This document shows, in pieces, positions 1-6,000 of a stretch of DNA of 64,000 bases; the first letter of the stretch is position 1; each line of letters starts with the position of its first letter. Source of the DNA: Escherichia coli (GTDB lineage Bacteria > Pseudomonadota > Gammaproteobacteria > Enterobacterales > Enterobacteriaceae); assembly GCF_965641715.1 (NCBI RefSeq), contig NZ_OZ282453.1, one strand, 5' to 3'. The position numbers are program-made.

Positions 1-3000
1 GGCTCATCACTTTCTGATGGATGAAGAAATCCTGCCAGTATGTAGCCCGGAATACGCTCAAAGACATGCTTTAACCAACACTGTAATTAACCTGCGTCAC
101 TGTACGTTTCTCCATGACAGACAGGCATGGAGCAACGACTCCGGTACGGATGAATGGCATAGTTGGGCGCAACATTATGCGGTTAATTTGCCGACATCTT
201 CTGGAATTGGCTTTGATCGCTCTGATTTAGCCGTTATCGCCGCAATGAATCATGTTGGGGTGGCGATGGGAAGAAAACGCCTGGTACAAAAAAGGCTTGC
301 CAGTGGTGAGCTCGTCGCGCCGTTTGGCGATATGACGGTGAAATGCCATCAGCATTATTACATCACCACATTACCGGGCAGGCAGTGGCCAAAAATTGAG
401 GCATTTATTACCTGGTTAAGAGAACAGGTAAGTCAATATGAATGTTATACCTTATAATACATTAAATCATCTGGTTTCTAAATAACCTTATTATGCACTG
501 TAAGTGTATGTTGGCTTTATAAATTGCAATTTTTATATGGGAATTGTTTTGTCAATAGTTACGAAAAGGATAAATAAAATAACCACATCTTCTTGGCGTC
601 GAATATTGGAGAGCGATAATTTATAGTAAACTAGATTACCAGAGAAAAGATAAGTAGCAATATATTTGCTGGTGGCATTTTTATTAAATATTATATGTGT
701 TGGTTTGTGACTTTAAAAAAATTAATTATTTAATAAAAAGGTGATTTATTTCTTATTTTGATTAATCTTGAGGATCCATTATGATTATCAGTTGTATGTC
801 ATAAAAATGAGGGGCTAAAAGCCTCAATGAATTGAGGCCTTTAGAACAGGGGTTATATCTTCTTTATATCTAACACATCACCCTCCCATACTCGTTTAAA
901 TCTTGCTGCATTACTGGCTGTATATAATACCGTATGATGTATATTTCTGTGCCCTAAATAATCTTGTATTAGTCTGGTGTCTAACCCTTGATTAGCTAAA
1001 GCATACCCACAACCATGCCTAAGCATGTGAGGATGAATATTAATATTCATATTGTGACTATATTTCTTACACATCTTATACACATATTGTCTCGATATTT
1101 TATTTCCTTGACAAGAAAGAAATAAAGAGTCTTCAAAAGGTTTTTTTACTATGTTATCACGTAGTGCTAGCCATTTTTTTAATAACAGAACAGTTTCTTT
1201 TTGCAGGGGATGTACTGTGGATAATCCATTTTTTAAACGCTTGATATATATTGCTGACTCTGAAAAGTCAATGTCGCTAATCTTTAGTGCAATAAGCTCG
1301 CTTACCCTAAGGCCATGTACATATGCCATTTGTAACATGGCTTTATCTCTAATTTCATTTTTTGAACCGTTGATGGCTTCAAAAAATAACAACCATTCAC
1401 TATGAGTAATAAATTTGCGCATAATATTACCAGTTATACTAATTAAGTTAAAAAATAAACTATAAATACCAGAGCCTGGTATTATTGCTTGTTTTTTATA
1501 AGCAAATAATGAGCTGGGGTTTAAATTATGCCACTAAATGGATATTCATCAATACCCCGCCAGAGAGATAGTTGCCCAGGGGGTATAGATTATTATTAGT
1601 CAACCAATGAGCATAAATAAGCACAAGGAGGTGTGTATTGCGAATAGTAATTCAATGCCATGCTGGTAGTTTTTTTGTGGTGAAAATATTTGTACCTTTT
1701 TGTTTACGGATGAAAAATAAACAGCCATATTATTTTGGTTAATTGTTGTGTTAGTTTTAACACTCGGTGATGTTTTTTGTTATAGTGCATTAATTTTTAA
1801 ATAAAAAAATTCATACATTCATGGATGTAATATATACAAGATGCAATGTTAATTTTAGATAAAATATTAATTGCATTGGATACTTTTTAAATATGCCGAT
1901 GTTGAGCTTAATTTTATGAGGGAGTGCTATTTCGGGTTGTAGGACTTTTTTATAATCATCTTATGGGCTCTTTATATTTAAAGGAGGGTTTTGAACGATA
2001 GGTACATAACGAAGGTTGTTTATATGCGTTTACAAACTATTAATTAGATTAGGTGAATTTTAATAAATTAATCTATAATCATACAGCAACTATATGAATT
2101 ATATTATTGACTAAATGTAATTCTTTCATCATAGTTGACATGGCTATTTTATATAAATAGAGGTGATTTATGCAAAACAGAAAATTTTTAACGCATCATG
2201 AAATTAATTTACTACTTCAATCTGTAAAACAAAAGAGTTGCTCTTCACGCGATGTTTGCATGATTTTATTGGCTTATTTTCATGGTCTGCGTGTTAGTGA
2301 GCTCTTATCTCTGCAGTTGTCGGATTTAGAACTAACTACAGAAAAAATATATATTCAACGGATAAAAAATGGATTCAGTACAGTCCATCCACTTCAAAAG
2401 GAAGAGGTGATTGCAATAACAAACTGGCTGAATGAAAGGAATTCATTAAATGTTAAACATTTCAATGATAACCCGTGGTTATTTGTTTCCCGAACAGGAA
2501 AACCATTATCGAGACAACGATTTTATAACATAGTTTCTGCTGCGGGTAAAAATGCAGGTTTAAATATTAAAGTTCATCCACATATGTTACGCCATGCATG
2601 TGGTTATTCACTAGCAGATAATGGTGTGGATACCCGTCTTATTCAGGACTATCTCGGGCATCGTAATATCAGGCATACGGTAATTTATACTGCTTCTAAT
2701 TCAATGAGATTTGAAAAAATGTGGGGGAGAGGTGACGCAAAAAAGCAACATTTTGACCCAAAATGTAAACCCAATCTTTGTTTAGAAATTCTCGTATAGA
2801 AAAACATTTTTTTCTATAAAAAACATTAAATTTACTGATTTAGATCAATGTGTGGCGTCAATCTACACATAAAGAGGTAGATTTGTCTTCTTTTTAATCT
2901 CTGGCGTATAAAGCCAAAATGTAAATAACAATCAAAATTATATTCTGAATTAAAATAAATACGCAGGTTTTTTACCTGCGTTTTGTGCTATTTATAGTTA

Positions 3001-6000
3001 ATTAAATTAATGTTGTCAAAATGGGTCATTTTGTAAACCTGTGCCTCAAGGTTTGTCTCCCCCCGGTGTGCAAAGCAAAAGGAAATTGGGAAAGGGGATA
3101 ACAGGAAATTGATTGCATGGTTTTGATTACGACGACAAAAAATATTTTTATAATTCAAGCAATTAAGAGTATGCGTTGGCGGGGTTTTTCGTACGTGAAA
3201 GTCATCGCTGTGGACGACTATTCTTCTCTGATTCGTGATTTTGGCACATCTTGCTTTCGGGATGAGCAATCGTTGTTGTTACCTGTATTCCCTGATAATG
3301 ATTCTACTACCTGTATACGCTCACTGTATTTCATTCACCAATGGCTAAAAAGCCAGCCTGTCAATATTCCGTGCCTGGCATGGGGGGATAATGGTGTAGT
3401 TAGTAATAAAGGCATACCTTTCATACCGTGGAAATTAACAGCAGAGCAATTTTGTTTCTATATAGATAAATTTATCAATGGCTGGAGGTGCAAAAAAAAT
3501 ATTCGCGCGAATCATAAAGTTTCTTTTTTAGAACGACAATTATCCCCGAGGGAGAAAAGTATCTTTATATATACCAAGGAAGGAAAAGATATTGCATGGA
3601 TCTCGAACACCTTGGGTATATCCAGTAAGACTGTGTGGACGCATCGTCGTAGAGCTATGGATAAACTCGGGGTAAAACGTTTACATCAATTTATAAATAT
3701 TCCGCGTTCCCTTATTAGTGAAAATATTCAATTATAATGTACGTTCAAGAGTATTAGTGTTATGAATAAAATATATAAAGTCATTTGGAACCATACAACC
3801 CAAAAATGGGATGTTGTGTCAGAATTGACGAGTTGTAGAAAAAAATGTAAATCAACTCGCTTAGGAATTGCTTTATCAGCAATGGTTCTGGGGGGCGTTA
3901 TTGCAATTAATTGCAATAACGCAATGGCAGATGTCATATTGTCACCAGACTGGCGTCCGGGTACGAATAACTCGGGTGTTGGGGCTGCAACAGTAAGTGG
4001 TAAAACCGAATACATCACTGGTCCAAATGTCGTCCAGTCTGGTGGGTCAGGTCTTATCTGGATGACTGTAGAACAGGCAATTTTAAATGGCTACACCACT
4101 GGAGATAATTTATCCGGATTGATTTACGTCAATACCGGAGAAAAAACAAAAACCATTACAGTGAAGGATGAGGTTACTGGTGCTTCTCAAACACTTCAAG
4201 TGTTTGATACTGACTCTTTCTCACAACGCGATGCGGGGACTGGGGGAAATGAAACCATTCCTGGTTTTAGTGGCACTGCGGATTTTTTCAATGCGACACG
4301 TTTTGTAACAGCTAATAATGGCGGTACAGCTATTTTGGATGTGGGTTCACCAGCAATCGGTAATTTTTTTAAAAATACACAGCTTGCTGTAGCTGATGGA
4401 GAAGGTTCCTCTGTTGTATGGAACTCGGTCAATGATTTTTATTTTCAGCCTGGTGCAACCATGCAGGGGGGCGGCGTTACTCAAAAAATCATTGACTCAA
4501 TGAAATATGCTGGAACAATTACTGATTGGGCGGGAAAAGTACACCATATTAACTCTCTTGATGATTTAAAGCAATATAATCAATATTTGATAAAGTCACT
4601 AGAGGACAAAACGCTATCTTATAAGCAGTATGATGCTGAATTTAATAAGGCCCTTATTGTCACTAAGCATAATTACAATGTGGATATGACCGCTGGGGGA
4701 CGCATAGACTCAACGCCTTATAAAGAAAATGTAGGGTTGCTAGCTGTTCTCCAGGCAACCAATAACGCACGGGCGATATTAGGTAAAACGGGTAAATTAA
4801 CTGGAGTTCTTCCTGCCTATGGGAATGGAGGAGGGATCGTTGCAACTAATGGTGGGACCGGTGTTAATGAAGGGGTCATTGATGCCATTGGTACTGAAAT
4901 GATTGCCTATCAAGACAGTACCATTGTTAACGATGGTACACTTTATGTTTGGGATAATAATAATAAATATGCTCTCCAGGCGGAGGGGATGGTTGCTGGG
5001 AGTAATAACTCATCAGCCATTAATAATGGTGTCATTAATATTCGCCCATTTAAAAATGCTTTCGCACCAGAGGGGATTAACACCGCAATTGTTGTTAGCA
5101 ATGGAGGCATGGCAACAAATAATGGCACGATAAATATTACTGCTGATGCATCAACTAATGATAATCATGGCAAAACACGAGGTGTAAATGTTGGAGCAGG
5201 AGGCTCTTTTATTAACTCGGCCTTAGGGAACATCAATATAGGTATTGCGGAGGATAAAACTGCGACTCATTCGGCTGTGGGTTCTGTTGCGATTGAAGTA
5301 CAAAATGGTGCAAACAAAGTCGTTAATGAAGGTACTATTCTTTTGGGCACGGGGGCTCAGGGGAACTACGGAATCCTGGCAAAGGATGCCGGGACTGTTG
5401 ATGTGGTAAATACAGGGACTATCACTATTGACGGTCATGACAGTGATGCACCTGCACTGAATGTTGGCATGCTGGCAAATAATAGCTCCGGGATGAAAAA
5501 CTCCGGGATTATCAATGTTAATGGTCTGAACAGTACCGGGCTACAGGTAATCAATGCAGGGCAATTAAATTCTGACGGTACGATAAATGTTGGCGGCAAG
5601 GGTATCAGTAGTGGTTTCCGTAACTATGGTGCCTGGGTGGAAGGTGCCGGAAGCAATGTTAATGTATCCGGAAAAATCAGTCTTGCCGGTACGGGGGCTG
5701 TGGGGGTTTTTGCTAAAGATGGCGGCAGTCTGACCCTGTCAGGCAATGGTGCAGTGCTATTTGGCAGCAGCGATCAGATAGGCTTTTATGTCTATGGAAA
5801 GGACTCTGCCATTCATAATACCGGAAGCGGTGTTATGGATGTGTCCACTGAAAACTCAACATTATTCCGTATTGCCAGCGGTGCGACATTCCAGGGAACT
5901 GCAGATGCTTCTTCTGCACTTACGGCGTCTGGTAAGAACTCTTATGCACTTATTGCCACGGGGAAATCGGATGGCGGTGTGGCCTCGACAGTAACGTCTG

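What the first reader, a model, noticed from the sequence alone, without database searches (positions are those of the whole stretch)
2740..3040. Candidate invertible promoter switch between ipuA and the LuxR regulator, overlapping the recombinase C-terminus
Two copies of a short palindromic module about 270 bp apart carry mutually inverted 7-9 bp repeats (cattttgac / gtcaaaatg and caaaatg / cattttg) around an AT-rich segment, directly between a Fim-type recombinase gene and the regulator/adhesin operon. The left repeat lies inside the last ~20 codons of ipuA, so inversion would also change the recombinase C-terminus. This matches what I recall of the described ipuS switch controlling ipuR-upaE in uropathogenic E. 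coli; the exact repeat boundaries here are my reading and remain ambiguous.
Basis: partly seen in the sequence, partly recalled or inferred. Interest (0 to 1): 0.55.

Follow-up and report, generated by a model that had tools for sequence, protein, structure and literature searches.

The report
Known ipuS invertible promoter switch, OFF
This is the already described ipuS DNA-inversion switch of E. coli, which turns the ipuR regulator and UpaE adhesin genes on or off; here it sits in the OFF orientation, so the finding is correct but ordinary.

Summary
Window 2100-3800 is 99.4% identical to the CFT073 ipuA-ipuS-ipuR-upaE locus, where the switch was characterised experimentally (PMC6083910; bioRxiv 10.1101/494401).

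The boundaries need refining. The crossover is a 7-bp core, TGACCCA (2754-2760) and TGGGTCA (3022-3028), with 261 nt between the two copies.

Three independent checks select this core:
- Inverting 2761-3021 gives a 198-aa IpuA ending DPF, which is the published 11-residue truncation with K-to-F.
- It reproduces the published 221-bp PacI fragment shift. The other two pairs give 231 and 211 bp.
- Nine public contigs carry exactly the predicted ON junction. One spans the whole inverted switch with 0 mismatches in 700 nt.

The window is in the OFF state, with full-length IpuA. OFF dominates public data: 0 of 236 complete genomes and 0 of 23 metagenome contigs are ON.

Small additions beyond the papers:
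- a strong bidirectional terminator inside the switch (2961-2981);
- a homotypic-to-heterotypic swap of site arms on inversion;
- two rare variants at the sites in other samples.

Verdict: already known, low interest.

The parts
853..1422 (-). ipuB, a FimB/FimE-family tyrosine DNA invertase (189 aa)
   Evidence: ORF. Its best NCBIfam match is NF007370, tyrosine-type DNA invertase, at 204.9 bits, just below the 221-bit cut-off. The protein is identical to CFT073 IpuB, and RefSeq annotates the CFT073 gene as ipuB.
2170..2799 (+). ipuA, full-length 209-aa form, which defines the OFF state; its last 11 codons lie inside the invertible segment
   Evidence: ORF. It scores 251 bits against NF007370 (cut-off 221) over residues 2-194. 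It differs from CFT073 IpuA at one residue, R187 versus I187. PMC6083910 defines OFF as the state that makes full-length IpuA.
2749..2765 (.). Left (ipuA-distal) recombination site: arm CATTT, 7-bp crossover core TGACCCA (2754-2760), arm AAATG
   Evidence: Sequence. This architecture is unique in the window and the site is invariant in 23 sequences. ON junctions in L002-L005, L032, L033, L035 and L036 break exactly at this core.
2761..3021 (.). Invertible segment ipuS: 261 nt between the cores, 25% G+C, here in the OFF orientation
   Evidence: Inverting exactly this segment reproduces the published IpuA truncation and the published 221-bp PacI fragment shift. It also matches contig L033 with 0 mismatches in 700 nt. 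CFT073 has the same 261-nt spacing.
2788..2820 (-). Candidate sigma-70 promoter of the switch, which points leftward into ipuA in the OFF state and toward ipuR after inversion. Two overlapping candidates: TTTATA(2820-2815)-16-TATACG(2798-2793), or TAGAAA(2816-2811)-17-GAGAAT(2793-2788)
   Evidence: My own scan. Both candidates match 4 of 6 bases in each hexamer and place the start site inside the ipuA coding sequence, as PMC6083910 reports from 5' RACE. I could not tell which one is the published promoter, because the figure is not held. Assigning the promoter to these positions is inference.
2914..2925 (+). Internal 12-bp direct copy (CCAAAATGTAAA) of the core edge plus inner arm of the left site (2758-2769)
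   Evidence: family D4, 100% identical. It is invariant in 23 sequences. It forms one end of the 156-bp deletion seen in contig L034.
2961..2990 (.). Bidirectional intrinsic terminator: 8-bp stem ACGCAGGT/ACCTGCGT (5 G-C pairs) with a 5-nt loop, followed by a T-rich tail on both strands
   Evidence: Found on both strands; shuffles of the region give 0.4 such sites on average. RNA folding gives -16.3 kcal/mol (z = -5.1) on the plus strand and -13.0 kcal/mol (z = -4.8) on the minus strand. The word 'terminator' does not occur in PMC6083910. Termination activity is inferred.
2998..3005 (.). The single PacI site (TTAATTAA), placed off-centre in the switch and used in the published orientation assay
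   Evidence: It is at the same position in CFT073. Mirroring it about the 7-bp cores gives the published 221-bp shift (407-186 = 1103-882 = 221).
3017..3033 (.). Right (ipuR-proximal) recombination site: arm CAAAA, core TGGGTCA (3022-3028), arm TTTTG
   Evidence: It is invariant in 23 sequences. L033 confirms the ON right junction GGGTTTACATTT|TGGGTCA|TTTTGTAAACC.
3117..3737 (+). ipuR, a LuxR/GerE-type helix-turn-helix regulator and the first gene controlled by the switch
   Evidence: ORF. Weak NCBIfam matches fall on the LuxR-type C-terminal DNA-binding region, and Logan records a Pfam GerE hit for the product. It differs from CFT073 IpuR at 2 residues.
3762..11681 (+). upaE, the phase-variable autotransporter adhesin (2639 aa) and second gene of the operon
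   Evidence: ORF. RefSeq annotates the matching genes as 'phase-variable autotransporter adhesin UpaE'. Pfam hits include ESPR, BigA_3rd and Autotransporter.

Best explanation
Window 2749-3033 is the ipuS phase-variation switch of E. coli, captured in the OFF orientation.

Each end is a site for a tyrosine recombinase. It consists of short inverted arms around an asymmetric 7-bp crossover core, TGACCCA on the left and its reverse complement on the right. Because the cores are mutually inverted, recombination flips the 261 nt between them rather than deleting it. The recombinases are the FimB/FimE-family enzymes IpuA and IpuB encoded next door, plus FimE, FimX and, weakly, FimB.

The flipped segment carries a weak sigma-70-type promoter next to its left end.
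- In OFF, as here, the promoter points back into ipuA, ipuR-upaE is silent, and ipuA encodes the full 209-aa protein.
- In ON, the promoter lies about 120 nt upstream of ipuR and drives ipuR-upaE. ipuA then ends 11 codons early, at ...DPF.

What is shown and what is inferred:
- Shown experimentally in CFT073 (literature): the inversion, the recombinase dependence, a transcription start in ON only, and induction of ipuR and upaE.
- Shown here: identity of this locus to CFT073, the exact core, the OFF state, and ON junctions in public assemblies.
- Inferred here: the hairpin at 2961-2981 terminates ipuA transcripts in both orientations, so read-through from ipuA never reaches ipuR and only the internal promoter decides ON or OFF. 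In OFF the promoter would make RNA antisense to ipuA. The arm swap on inversion would underlie recombinase-specific directional bias. In OFF the sites are CATTT/CATTT and CAAAA/CAAAA; in ON each site is mixed.
For: - The region is 99.4% identical to CFT073 over 1701 bp. 236 of 5426 complete E. coli genomes carry it, always on the chromosome.
- Only 6 substitutions separate the window from CFT073 between 2100 and 3057, and none is in the sites, the terminator stem or the candidate promoter.
- IpuA passes the curated cut-off of the FimB/FimE-type DNA invertase models. IpuB is identical to the CFT073 protein.
- The literature reports a 260-bp element with 7-bp inverted repeats, the distal one inside ipuA. 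OFF gives full-length IpuA. ON gives an 11-residue truncation with K-to-F. 5' RACE gives a product only in locked-ON cells, with the start site inside the ipuA coding sequence. PacI fragments are 407/882 bp in ON and 186/1103 bp in OFF.
- All five Fim recombinases invert the element, and ipuR rises about 1600-fold and upaE about 33-fold when IpuB is overexpressed.
- Inverting 2761-3021 gives ...HFDPF*, 198 aa.
- Only the TGACCCA core reproduces the 221-bp PacI shift.
- The exact 198-aa ON protein is encoded on 11 public contigs. Ten were read. Eight of them carry the predicted ON left junction over an otherwise unaltered switch. L033 spans the entire switch in ON with 0 mismatches in 700 nt to the predicted CFT073-ON sequence.
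- Four Logan contigs stop exactly 30 nt after the first base of the core. With k = 31 (my knowledge of the Logan assembly method), that is where a de Bruijn graph branches if both ON and OFF reads are present in the same sample.
- The site architecture is unique in the window and absent from simulations. The sites are invariant while the interior is polymorphic.
- The terminator is supported, and the promoter candidates.
Against: - Only one orientation can be seen in this one sequence, so switching in this particular strain is not shown.
- No promoter reaches the standard 9-of-12 consensus threshold on the minus strand. The candidates are 4+4 matches and rest on the published 5' RACE result.
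- The paper says 260 bp, whereas I count 261 nt between the cores, in CFT073 as well. This is probably a difference in counting convention.
- The paper's text says K-to-L and its figure legend says K-to-F. The sequence gives F.
- There is no IHF consensus site in or near the switch, unlike fimS.
- The terminator, antisense-transcription and arm-swap ideas have no experimental support.
Confidence: 0.95

Rival explanations
1. The switch is real, but it recombines at one of the repeat pairs the first reader listed. That would be either the 9-bp pair cattttgac/gtcaaaatg (inverting 2758-3014) or the 7-bp pair caaaatg/cattttg (inverting 2766-3026).
For: Both pairs are exact inverted repeats at the right places, and the 9-bp pair is the longest exact one.
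Against: - By my own translation of the sequence, the 9-bp pair predicts an IpuA tail ...HFDNINLINYK*, and the second 7-bp pair predicts ...DPK*. Neither matches the published K-to-F truncation.
- They predict PacI shifts of 231 and 211 bp, against the published 221 bp.
- All nine ON contigs read ...CATTTTGACCCA|TTTTGACAACAT..., which is the junction made by the TGACCCA core.
- A metagenome scan that allowed any of the three junctions found none, but it used the window's own allele at 3009.
Confidence: 0.02
2. The switch gates read-through from the ipuA promoter rather than carrying its own promoter. On this view, orientation of the internal terminator decides whether ipuA transcripts continue into ipuR-upaE.
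For: There is a strong intrinsic terminator inside the element. No strong promoter consensus lies on the minus strand. The authors themselves raised this alternative.
Against: - The hairpin has T-rich tails on both strands and folds well on both. It should therefore block read-through in both orientations rather than in one.
- 5' RACE found a transcription start inside the element, in locked-ON cells only.
Confidence: 0.04
3. The repeats are chance matches in AT-rich intergenic DNA, and nothing inverts here.
For: Bare 7-mer and 9-mer inverted repeats at this spacing are common in the window, with 1065 and 93 pairs respectively. All 236 complete genomes and all 23 metagenome contigs show a single orientation.
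Against: - The composite site architecture is unique in the window and absent from simulations.
- The sites are invariant while the interior varies.
- Inverted copies exist in public assemblies with base-exact junctions.
- Inversion was shown experimentally in CFT073.
Confidence: 0.01

Closest known systems
ipuS of E. coli CFT073 (Battaglioli et al. 2018, mBio, PMC6083910; SVRE study, bioRxiv 10.1101/494401)
   Same: It is the same locus. Gene order is the same (dsdC, ipuB, ipuA, switch, ipuR, upaE). Both 17-bp sites are identical and the core spacing is the same 261 nt. The PacI site is at the same position and IpuB is identical. IpuA differs at one residue.
   Different: There are four substitutions in the switch interior: 2853, 2881, 2994 and 3009. 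A3009 is unique among the 23 sequences compared. UpaE is 2639 aa here. The CFT073 gene spans 7950 nt, which I take to be about 2649 aa. Nothing suggests a functional difference.
fimS, the type 1 fimbriae switch of E. coli (inverted by FimB and FimE)
   Same: It is also a roughly 300-bp AT-rich promoter-bearing segment, flanked by short inverted repeats and flipped by FimB/FimE-family tyrosine recombinases encoded next to it. Recombinases are shared between the two switches. The ends resemble each other moderately: the best ungapped match is 17 of 25 bases, and GTCAAAATGG is shared at the right ends.
   Different: fimS has a 9-bp repeat, TTGGGGCCA, instead of 7 bp. Its repeats lie outside the recombinase genes, so inversion does not change a recombinase protein. 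From the literature, fimS uses IHF and Lrp sites, whereas no IHF consensus occurs in ipuS. The target is a fimbrial operon rather than a regulator plus an autotransporter.
hyxS, the FimX-dependent switch upstream of the LuxR-type regulator hyxR (as cited in PMC6083910)
   Same: It is an accessory Fim-type switch on a genomic island. It sits next to its own recombinase and controls a LuxR-type regulator.
   Different: It has 16-bp repeats and is inverted only by FimX. I did not examine its sequence here.

Membership tests
ipuS switch as defined in CFT073 | Sequence identity to the CFT073 ipuA-ipuR interval | tested here: met
   99.4% over 1701 bp. Six substitutions between 2100 and 3057, none in the sites.
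ipuS switch as defined in CFT073 | A pair of 7-bp inverted repeats bounding an element of about 260 bp | tested here: met
   TGACCCA at 2754-2760 and TGGGTCA at 3022-3028, with 261 nt between them, the same as in CFT073.
ipuS switch as defined in CFT073 | The distal repeat lies inside ipuA, and inversion removes 11 C-terminal residues and replaces the terminal K | tested here: met
   In-silico inversion turns the 209-aa protein into a 198-aa protein ending DPF. This matches the figure legend of PMC6083910.
ipuS switch as defined in CFT073 | Both orientations physically occur | tested here: met
   Met for the locus in other isolates. Nine public contigs carry the ON left junction; eight have an otherwise unaltered switch, one of which (L033) spans the whole switch, and the ninth (L034) carries a 156-bp internal deletion. 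OFF is the state in 236 genomes and 23 metagenome contigs. It cannot be tested for this strain from a single sequence.
ipuS switch as defined in CFT073 | Asymmetric PacI site giving the published orientation-specific fragments | tested here: met
   A single PacI site at 2998-3005. The predicted shift is 221 bp, equal to the published 407-186 and 1103-882.
ipuS switch as defined in CFT073 | A promoter inside the element that faces ipuR only in ON | tested here: inconclusive
   Two candidates with 4 of 6 matches in each hexamer lie on the minus strand at 2788-2820, with the start site inside ipuA as published. None reaches 9 of 12 matches. The experimental support is the published 5' RACE.
ipuS switch as defined in CFT073 | Downstream ipuR-upaE operon | tested here: met
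   ipuR at 3117-3737 and upaE at 3762-11681, both intact.
Fim-type invertible promoter switches driven by tyrosine recombinases | An adjacent FimB/FimE-family tyrosine DNA invertase with its catalytic residues | tested here: met
   IpuA scores 251 and 238 bits against NF007370 and NF007371, whose cut-offs are 221 and 222 bits. IpuB's best hit is to the same models, at 205 bits, below the cut-off. The motifs GLRVSE, HMLRH and IYTAS begin at residues 39, 138 and 172, all before residue 198.
Fim-type invertible promoter switches driven by tyrosine recombinases | Ends similar to the fimS recombinase-binding ends | tested here: inconclusive
   The best ungapped match is 17 of 25 bases, and a 10-nt run GTCAAAATGG is shared. 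I made no significance test. The paper reports similarity in its Fig. 2C.
Fim-type invertible promoter switches driven by tyrosine recombinases | Accessory IHF site (a feature of fimS, not strictly defining) | tested here: not met
   The pattern WATCAANNNNTTR has no match between 2700 and 3100. It has 3 matches in the whole window, against 3.6 expected by chance.

The most novel reading that the evidence does not exclude
ipuS may be more than a promoter flip. Four ideas remain open.
1. A bidirectional terminator inside the element insulates ipuR-upaE from ipuA transcription in both states.
2. In OFF the switch promoter fires antisense into ipuA. Together with the C-terminal truncation in ON, this would give the recombinase an orientation-dependent feedback, comparable to the orientational control of fimE.
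3. Inversion converts two homotypic sites (arms CATTT/CATTT and CAAAA/CAAAA) into two heterotypic ones. That could set the reported opposite directional preferences of IpuA (ON to OFF) and of IpuB and FimE (OFF to ON).
4. An internal 12-bp copy of the site edge allows occasional 156-bp deletions that remove the promoter and leave a switch that still inverts but is silent, as in contig L034.

The two papers I read do not describe any of these.
Probability: 0.3. Interest if true: 0.3.

Novelty: already known. Interest (0 to 1): 0.12.

Why it matters
The switch controls a large surface adhesin, UpaE, and a LuxR-type regulator in extraintestinal pathogenic E. coli. It also shares recombinases with the type 1 fimbriae switch, so its state bears on how adhesins are coordinated during urinary tract infection.

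For this scan, the value is confirmation. What this stage adds:
- exact coordinates and the OFF state;
- base-exact ON junctions from public data;
- a measure of how strongly OFF dominates in assemblies. Each of the two full-length IpuA alleles is on at least 1000 contigs, against about eleven contigs in all for the ON form.

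Tried and rejected
- **First metagenome scan for ON junctions.** I used a gapped pattern that allowed all three candidate crossovers, and it found nothing. Part of the reason is that the pattern carried the window's private allele at 3009 (A; all 22 other sequences have G). ON is also rare.
- **Second metagenome scan.** A degenerate pattern matching either orientation found 23 contigs, all OFF.
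- **Predicted ON sequence against 5426 complete E. coli genomes.** No genome was ON. All 236 carriers gave the flanks on one strand and the interior on the other.
- **Consensus promoter scan.** It did not find the minus-strand promoter. Its only hit was on the plus strand (TTTACC-16-TATAGT, 2971-2998), and one hit is fewer than the 2.5 expected from shuffles, so I did not treat it as a feature.
- **IHF consensus.** No match in the switch.
- **The divergent ipuR-upaE homologue in strain SC422 (74% identical; L030).** I checked it for a related switch. IS3 and IS66 remnants lie upstream, there is no recombinase gene, and no TGACCCA or TGGGTCA core occurs.
- **Contig L001.** It encodes the ON-form protein, so I first took it for ON. 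It is in fact OFF-oriented with a 10-bp duplication.
- **Not pursued:** wider searches for IpuA relatives in other species, because the identity of the element was already settled.

Full report
**1. What is in the sequence**

The first 12 kb of the window read as follows:
- the 3' end of dsdC (17-457, plus strand);
- ipuB (853-1422, minus strand);
- a 747-bp AT-rich spacer;
- ipuA (2170-2799, plus strand, 209 aa);
- a 317-bp gap;
- a LuxR-type regulator gene (3117-3737);
- a 2639-aa autotransporter gene (3762-11681).

They belong to two 17-bp palindromic modules, CATTTTGACCCAAAATG (2749-2765) and CAAAATGGGTCATTTTG (3017-3033). The DNA between the modules is 25% G+C, against 47% for the window. 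The left module covers ipuA codons 194-199 of 209.

**2. Is it more than chance?**

Taken alone, the repeats are not. The window contains 1065 pairs of 7-mer inverted repeats and 93 pairs of 9-mer inverted repeats at 200-400 bp spacing.

The composite design is another matter. I searched for two sites, each with 5-bp palindromic arms around a 7-bp core, with mutually inverted cores 100-1000 bp apart. This occurs once in the 64 kb, exactly here. It appeared in 0 of 300 Markov simulations of the window, and in 4% of 64-kb simulations with the local AT-rich composition.

In 23 aligned sequences (the window, CFT073 and 21 metagenome contigs) both modules are invariant. Seventeen of the 261 interior positions vary.

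**3. Identity**

Window 2100-3800 matches 236 of 5426 complete E. coli genomes over at least 80% of its length, nearly all at 99% identity or more, always on the chromosome. RefSeq annotates the matches as ipuA, a LuxR/helix-turn-helix regulator, and 'phase-variable autotransporter adhesin UpaE'. CFT073 is 99.4% identical.

Between 2100 and 3057 the window differs from CFT073 at six positions: 2150, 2729, 2853, 2881, 2994 and 3009. None lies in the modules. IpuB is identical to the CFT073 protein, IpuA differs at one residue, and IpuR differs at two. IpuA passes the curated cut-offs of the two FimB/FimE-type DNA invertase models of NCBIfam. IpuB has the same best hits but falls slightly below the cut-off.

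**4. What the literature says**

Battaglioli et al. 2018 (PMC6083910) described ipuS in CFT073:
- a 260-bp invertible element bounded by 7-bp inverted repeats, the distal one inside ipuA;
- OFF gives full-length IpuA;
- ON removes 11 residues and changes the terminal K (the text says to L, the legend says to F);
- orientation is read by PacI digestion, giving 407/882 bp in ON and 186/1103 bp in OFF.

The second study (bioRxiv 10.1101/494401) confirmed the 7-nt repeats by sequencing both orientations. It showed that all five Fim recombinases invert ipuS. It measured about a 1600-fold rise in ipuR and a 33-fold rise in upaE with IpuB overexpression. It also reported directional preferences: IpuB and FimE favour OFF to ON, and IpuA favours ON to OFF.

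**5. Which repeat is the crossover?**

Because each end is a palindrome, three overlapping inverted-repeat pairs exist, and sequence alone cannot choose among them. Three independent tests all select TGACCCA (2754-2760) / TGGGTCA (3022-3028), with 261 nt between the copies.

- *Protein.* Inverting 2761-3021 gives IpuA ...HFDPF*, 198 aa. That is 11 residues shorter with K198 replaced by F. By my own translation of the sequence, the 9-bp pair would give ...HFDNINLINYK* and the other 7-bp pair ...DPK*.
- *PacI geometry.* Mirroring the single PacI site (2998-3005) about the three candidate pairs predicts fragment shifts of 231, 221 and 211 bp. The published shift is 221 bp.
- *Real ON molecules.* An exact-sequence look-up of the predicted 198-aa protein found 5 contigs for the window allele and 6 for the CFT073 allele.
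  - L002-L005, L032, L033, L035 and L036 all read ...GCAACATTTTGACCCA|TTTTGACAACATC....
  - L033 (Logan SRR33839893) runs through the entire switch into ipuR and upaE. It matches CFT073 with the 261 nt inverted at 0 mismatches in 700 nt, so the right junction is confirmed as well.

Four Logan contigs end exactly 23 nt after the core, which is 30 nt from its first base. From my knowledge of the Logan method, k is 31. A de Bruijn graph branches at that point only if the reverse complement of the OFF right junction is also in the reads. I therefore infer that those samples held both orientations.

The spacing is 261 nt in CFT073 too. The paper's '260 bp' is probably a counting convention.

**6. 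State and frequency**

The window encodes full-length IpuA and has the PacI site on the ipuR side, so it is OFF.

OFF is overwhelmingly the assembled state. None of the 236 complete genomes is ON, and none of 23 metagenome contigs is ON. The ON forms are on about eleven contigs in all.

**7. Anatomy and mechanism**

Each end reads as a conventional core site for a tyrosine recombinase: inverted arms around an asymmetric 7-bp overlap region. The identity of the two overlap regions, in opposite orientation, is what directs inversion rather than deletion. This follows from established knowledge of tyrosine recombinases.

In OFF, the left site has two identical arms (CATTT, read toward the core on each strand) and the right site has two identical arms (CAAAA). 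After inversion, each site has one arm of each kind. This can be read directly from the sequence. That it underlies the reported directional preferences is my inference.

On the minus strand, two overlapping promoter candidates fit the published description: TTTATA-16-TATACG and TAGAAA-17-GAGAAT, within 2788-2820. After inversion they would lie at about 2962-2994, some 120 nt upstream of the ipuR start codon. In OFF they point into ipuA, antisense to it.

At 2961-2981 there is an 8-bp stem with 5 G-C pairs and T-rich tails on both strands. The terminator scan detected it on both strands. RNA folding gives z-scores of -5.1 and -4.8 against shuffles. In either orientation the hairpin lies between the ipuA stop codon and the promoter or ipuR. 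It should therefore stop ipuA read-through in both states and leave the internal promoter as the only determinant. The paper raises read-through as an alternative mechanism but never mentions a terminator.

**8. Comparison with relatives**

I retrieved fimS from a complete genome. Its ends resemble the ipuS ends moderately: the best ungapped match is 17 of 25 bases, and GTCAAAATGG is shared at the right ends. This agrees with the paper's statement that the two are similar.

Three things distinguish ipuS from fimS:
- fimS has 9-bp repeats.
- fimS does not overlap a recombinase gene.
- ipuS has no IHF consensus site.

A divergent ipuR-upaE homologue in strain SC422 has IS remnants upstream, no recombinase gene and no ipuS-like core.

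**9. Verdict**

The element is the known ipuS switch in the OFF orientation, with the crossover repeat re-assigned to the 7-bp core.

The additions from this stage are the terminator, the arm swap, the quantified dominance of OFF, and two rare site variants in other samples. These are incremental and partly inferential. Novelty: already known. Interest: low.

Noticed in passing
L034 (Logan SRR34861436_129773), about 105 nt after the left core; corresponds to window 2758-2925: This contig has the ON left junction but only 105 nt between the cores instead of 261. The missing 156 bp lie exactly between the two 12-bp direct repeats CCAAAATGTAAA (window 2758-2769 and 2914-2925). The deletion removes the candidate promoter and leaves both recombination sites intact. 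It could be slippage between the repeats or recombinase action at an internal pseudo-site.
   Followed up: partly
L001 (Logan SRR7591052_108), positions 1736-1775; corresponds to window 2749-2760: This contig has an OFF-oriented switch with a 10-bp tandem duplication (CATTTTGACC) that doubles the crossover core. The resulting frameshift yields the same 198-aa IpuA ...DPF* that the ON state makes. The spanning 31-mers occur in neither the ON nor the OFF sequence, so I think it is a real variant rather than an assembly artefact.
   Followed up: partly
window 2961-2990: A strong bidirectional intrinsic terminator hairpin lies inside the invertible segment. The ipuS paper does not mention it ('terminator' occurs 0 times in its text).
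   Followed up: partly
window 2971-2998: A plus-strand promoter-like site, TTTACC-16-TATAGT, faces ipuR in the OFF orientation. The A at 2994, present in 9 of 23 sequences including the window, makes the second hexamer TATAGT, where CFT073 has TGTAGT. Shuffles of the region give more such sites on average (2.5) than the one found, so it may mean nothing. If it were active, it would make OFF leaky in this allele.
   Followed up: no
window 3009: An A at this position, 8 nt outside the right site, is private to the window among the 23 sequences compared; all the others have G. It caused my first ON-junction scan to miss the common allele.
   Followed up: yes
window 18570-18628 and 26147-26299: A lambda CIII thermoregulator element (Rfam RF01804, 88.5 bits) and two adjacent tRNA genes suggest a lambdoid prophage a few kb downstream of upaE.
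   Followed up: no
window 10620-10685: A run of Pro-Gln dipeptide repeats (PEPQPQPQPQPQPQPQPHP) lies in UpaE ahead of the C-terminal part of the protein. Variation in repeat number may account for the UpaE length difference between this strain (2639 aa) and CFT073; I did not compare the two genes.
   Followed up: no
L030 (NZ_LR778143.1, strain SC422), 3500-6200: A 74%-identical ipuR-upaE homologue is preceded by IS3 and IS66 remnants, with no recombinase gene and no ipuS-like core. Its upaE is frameshifted.
   Followed up: partly
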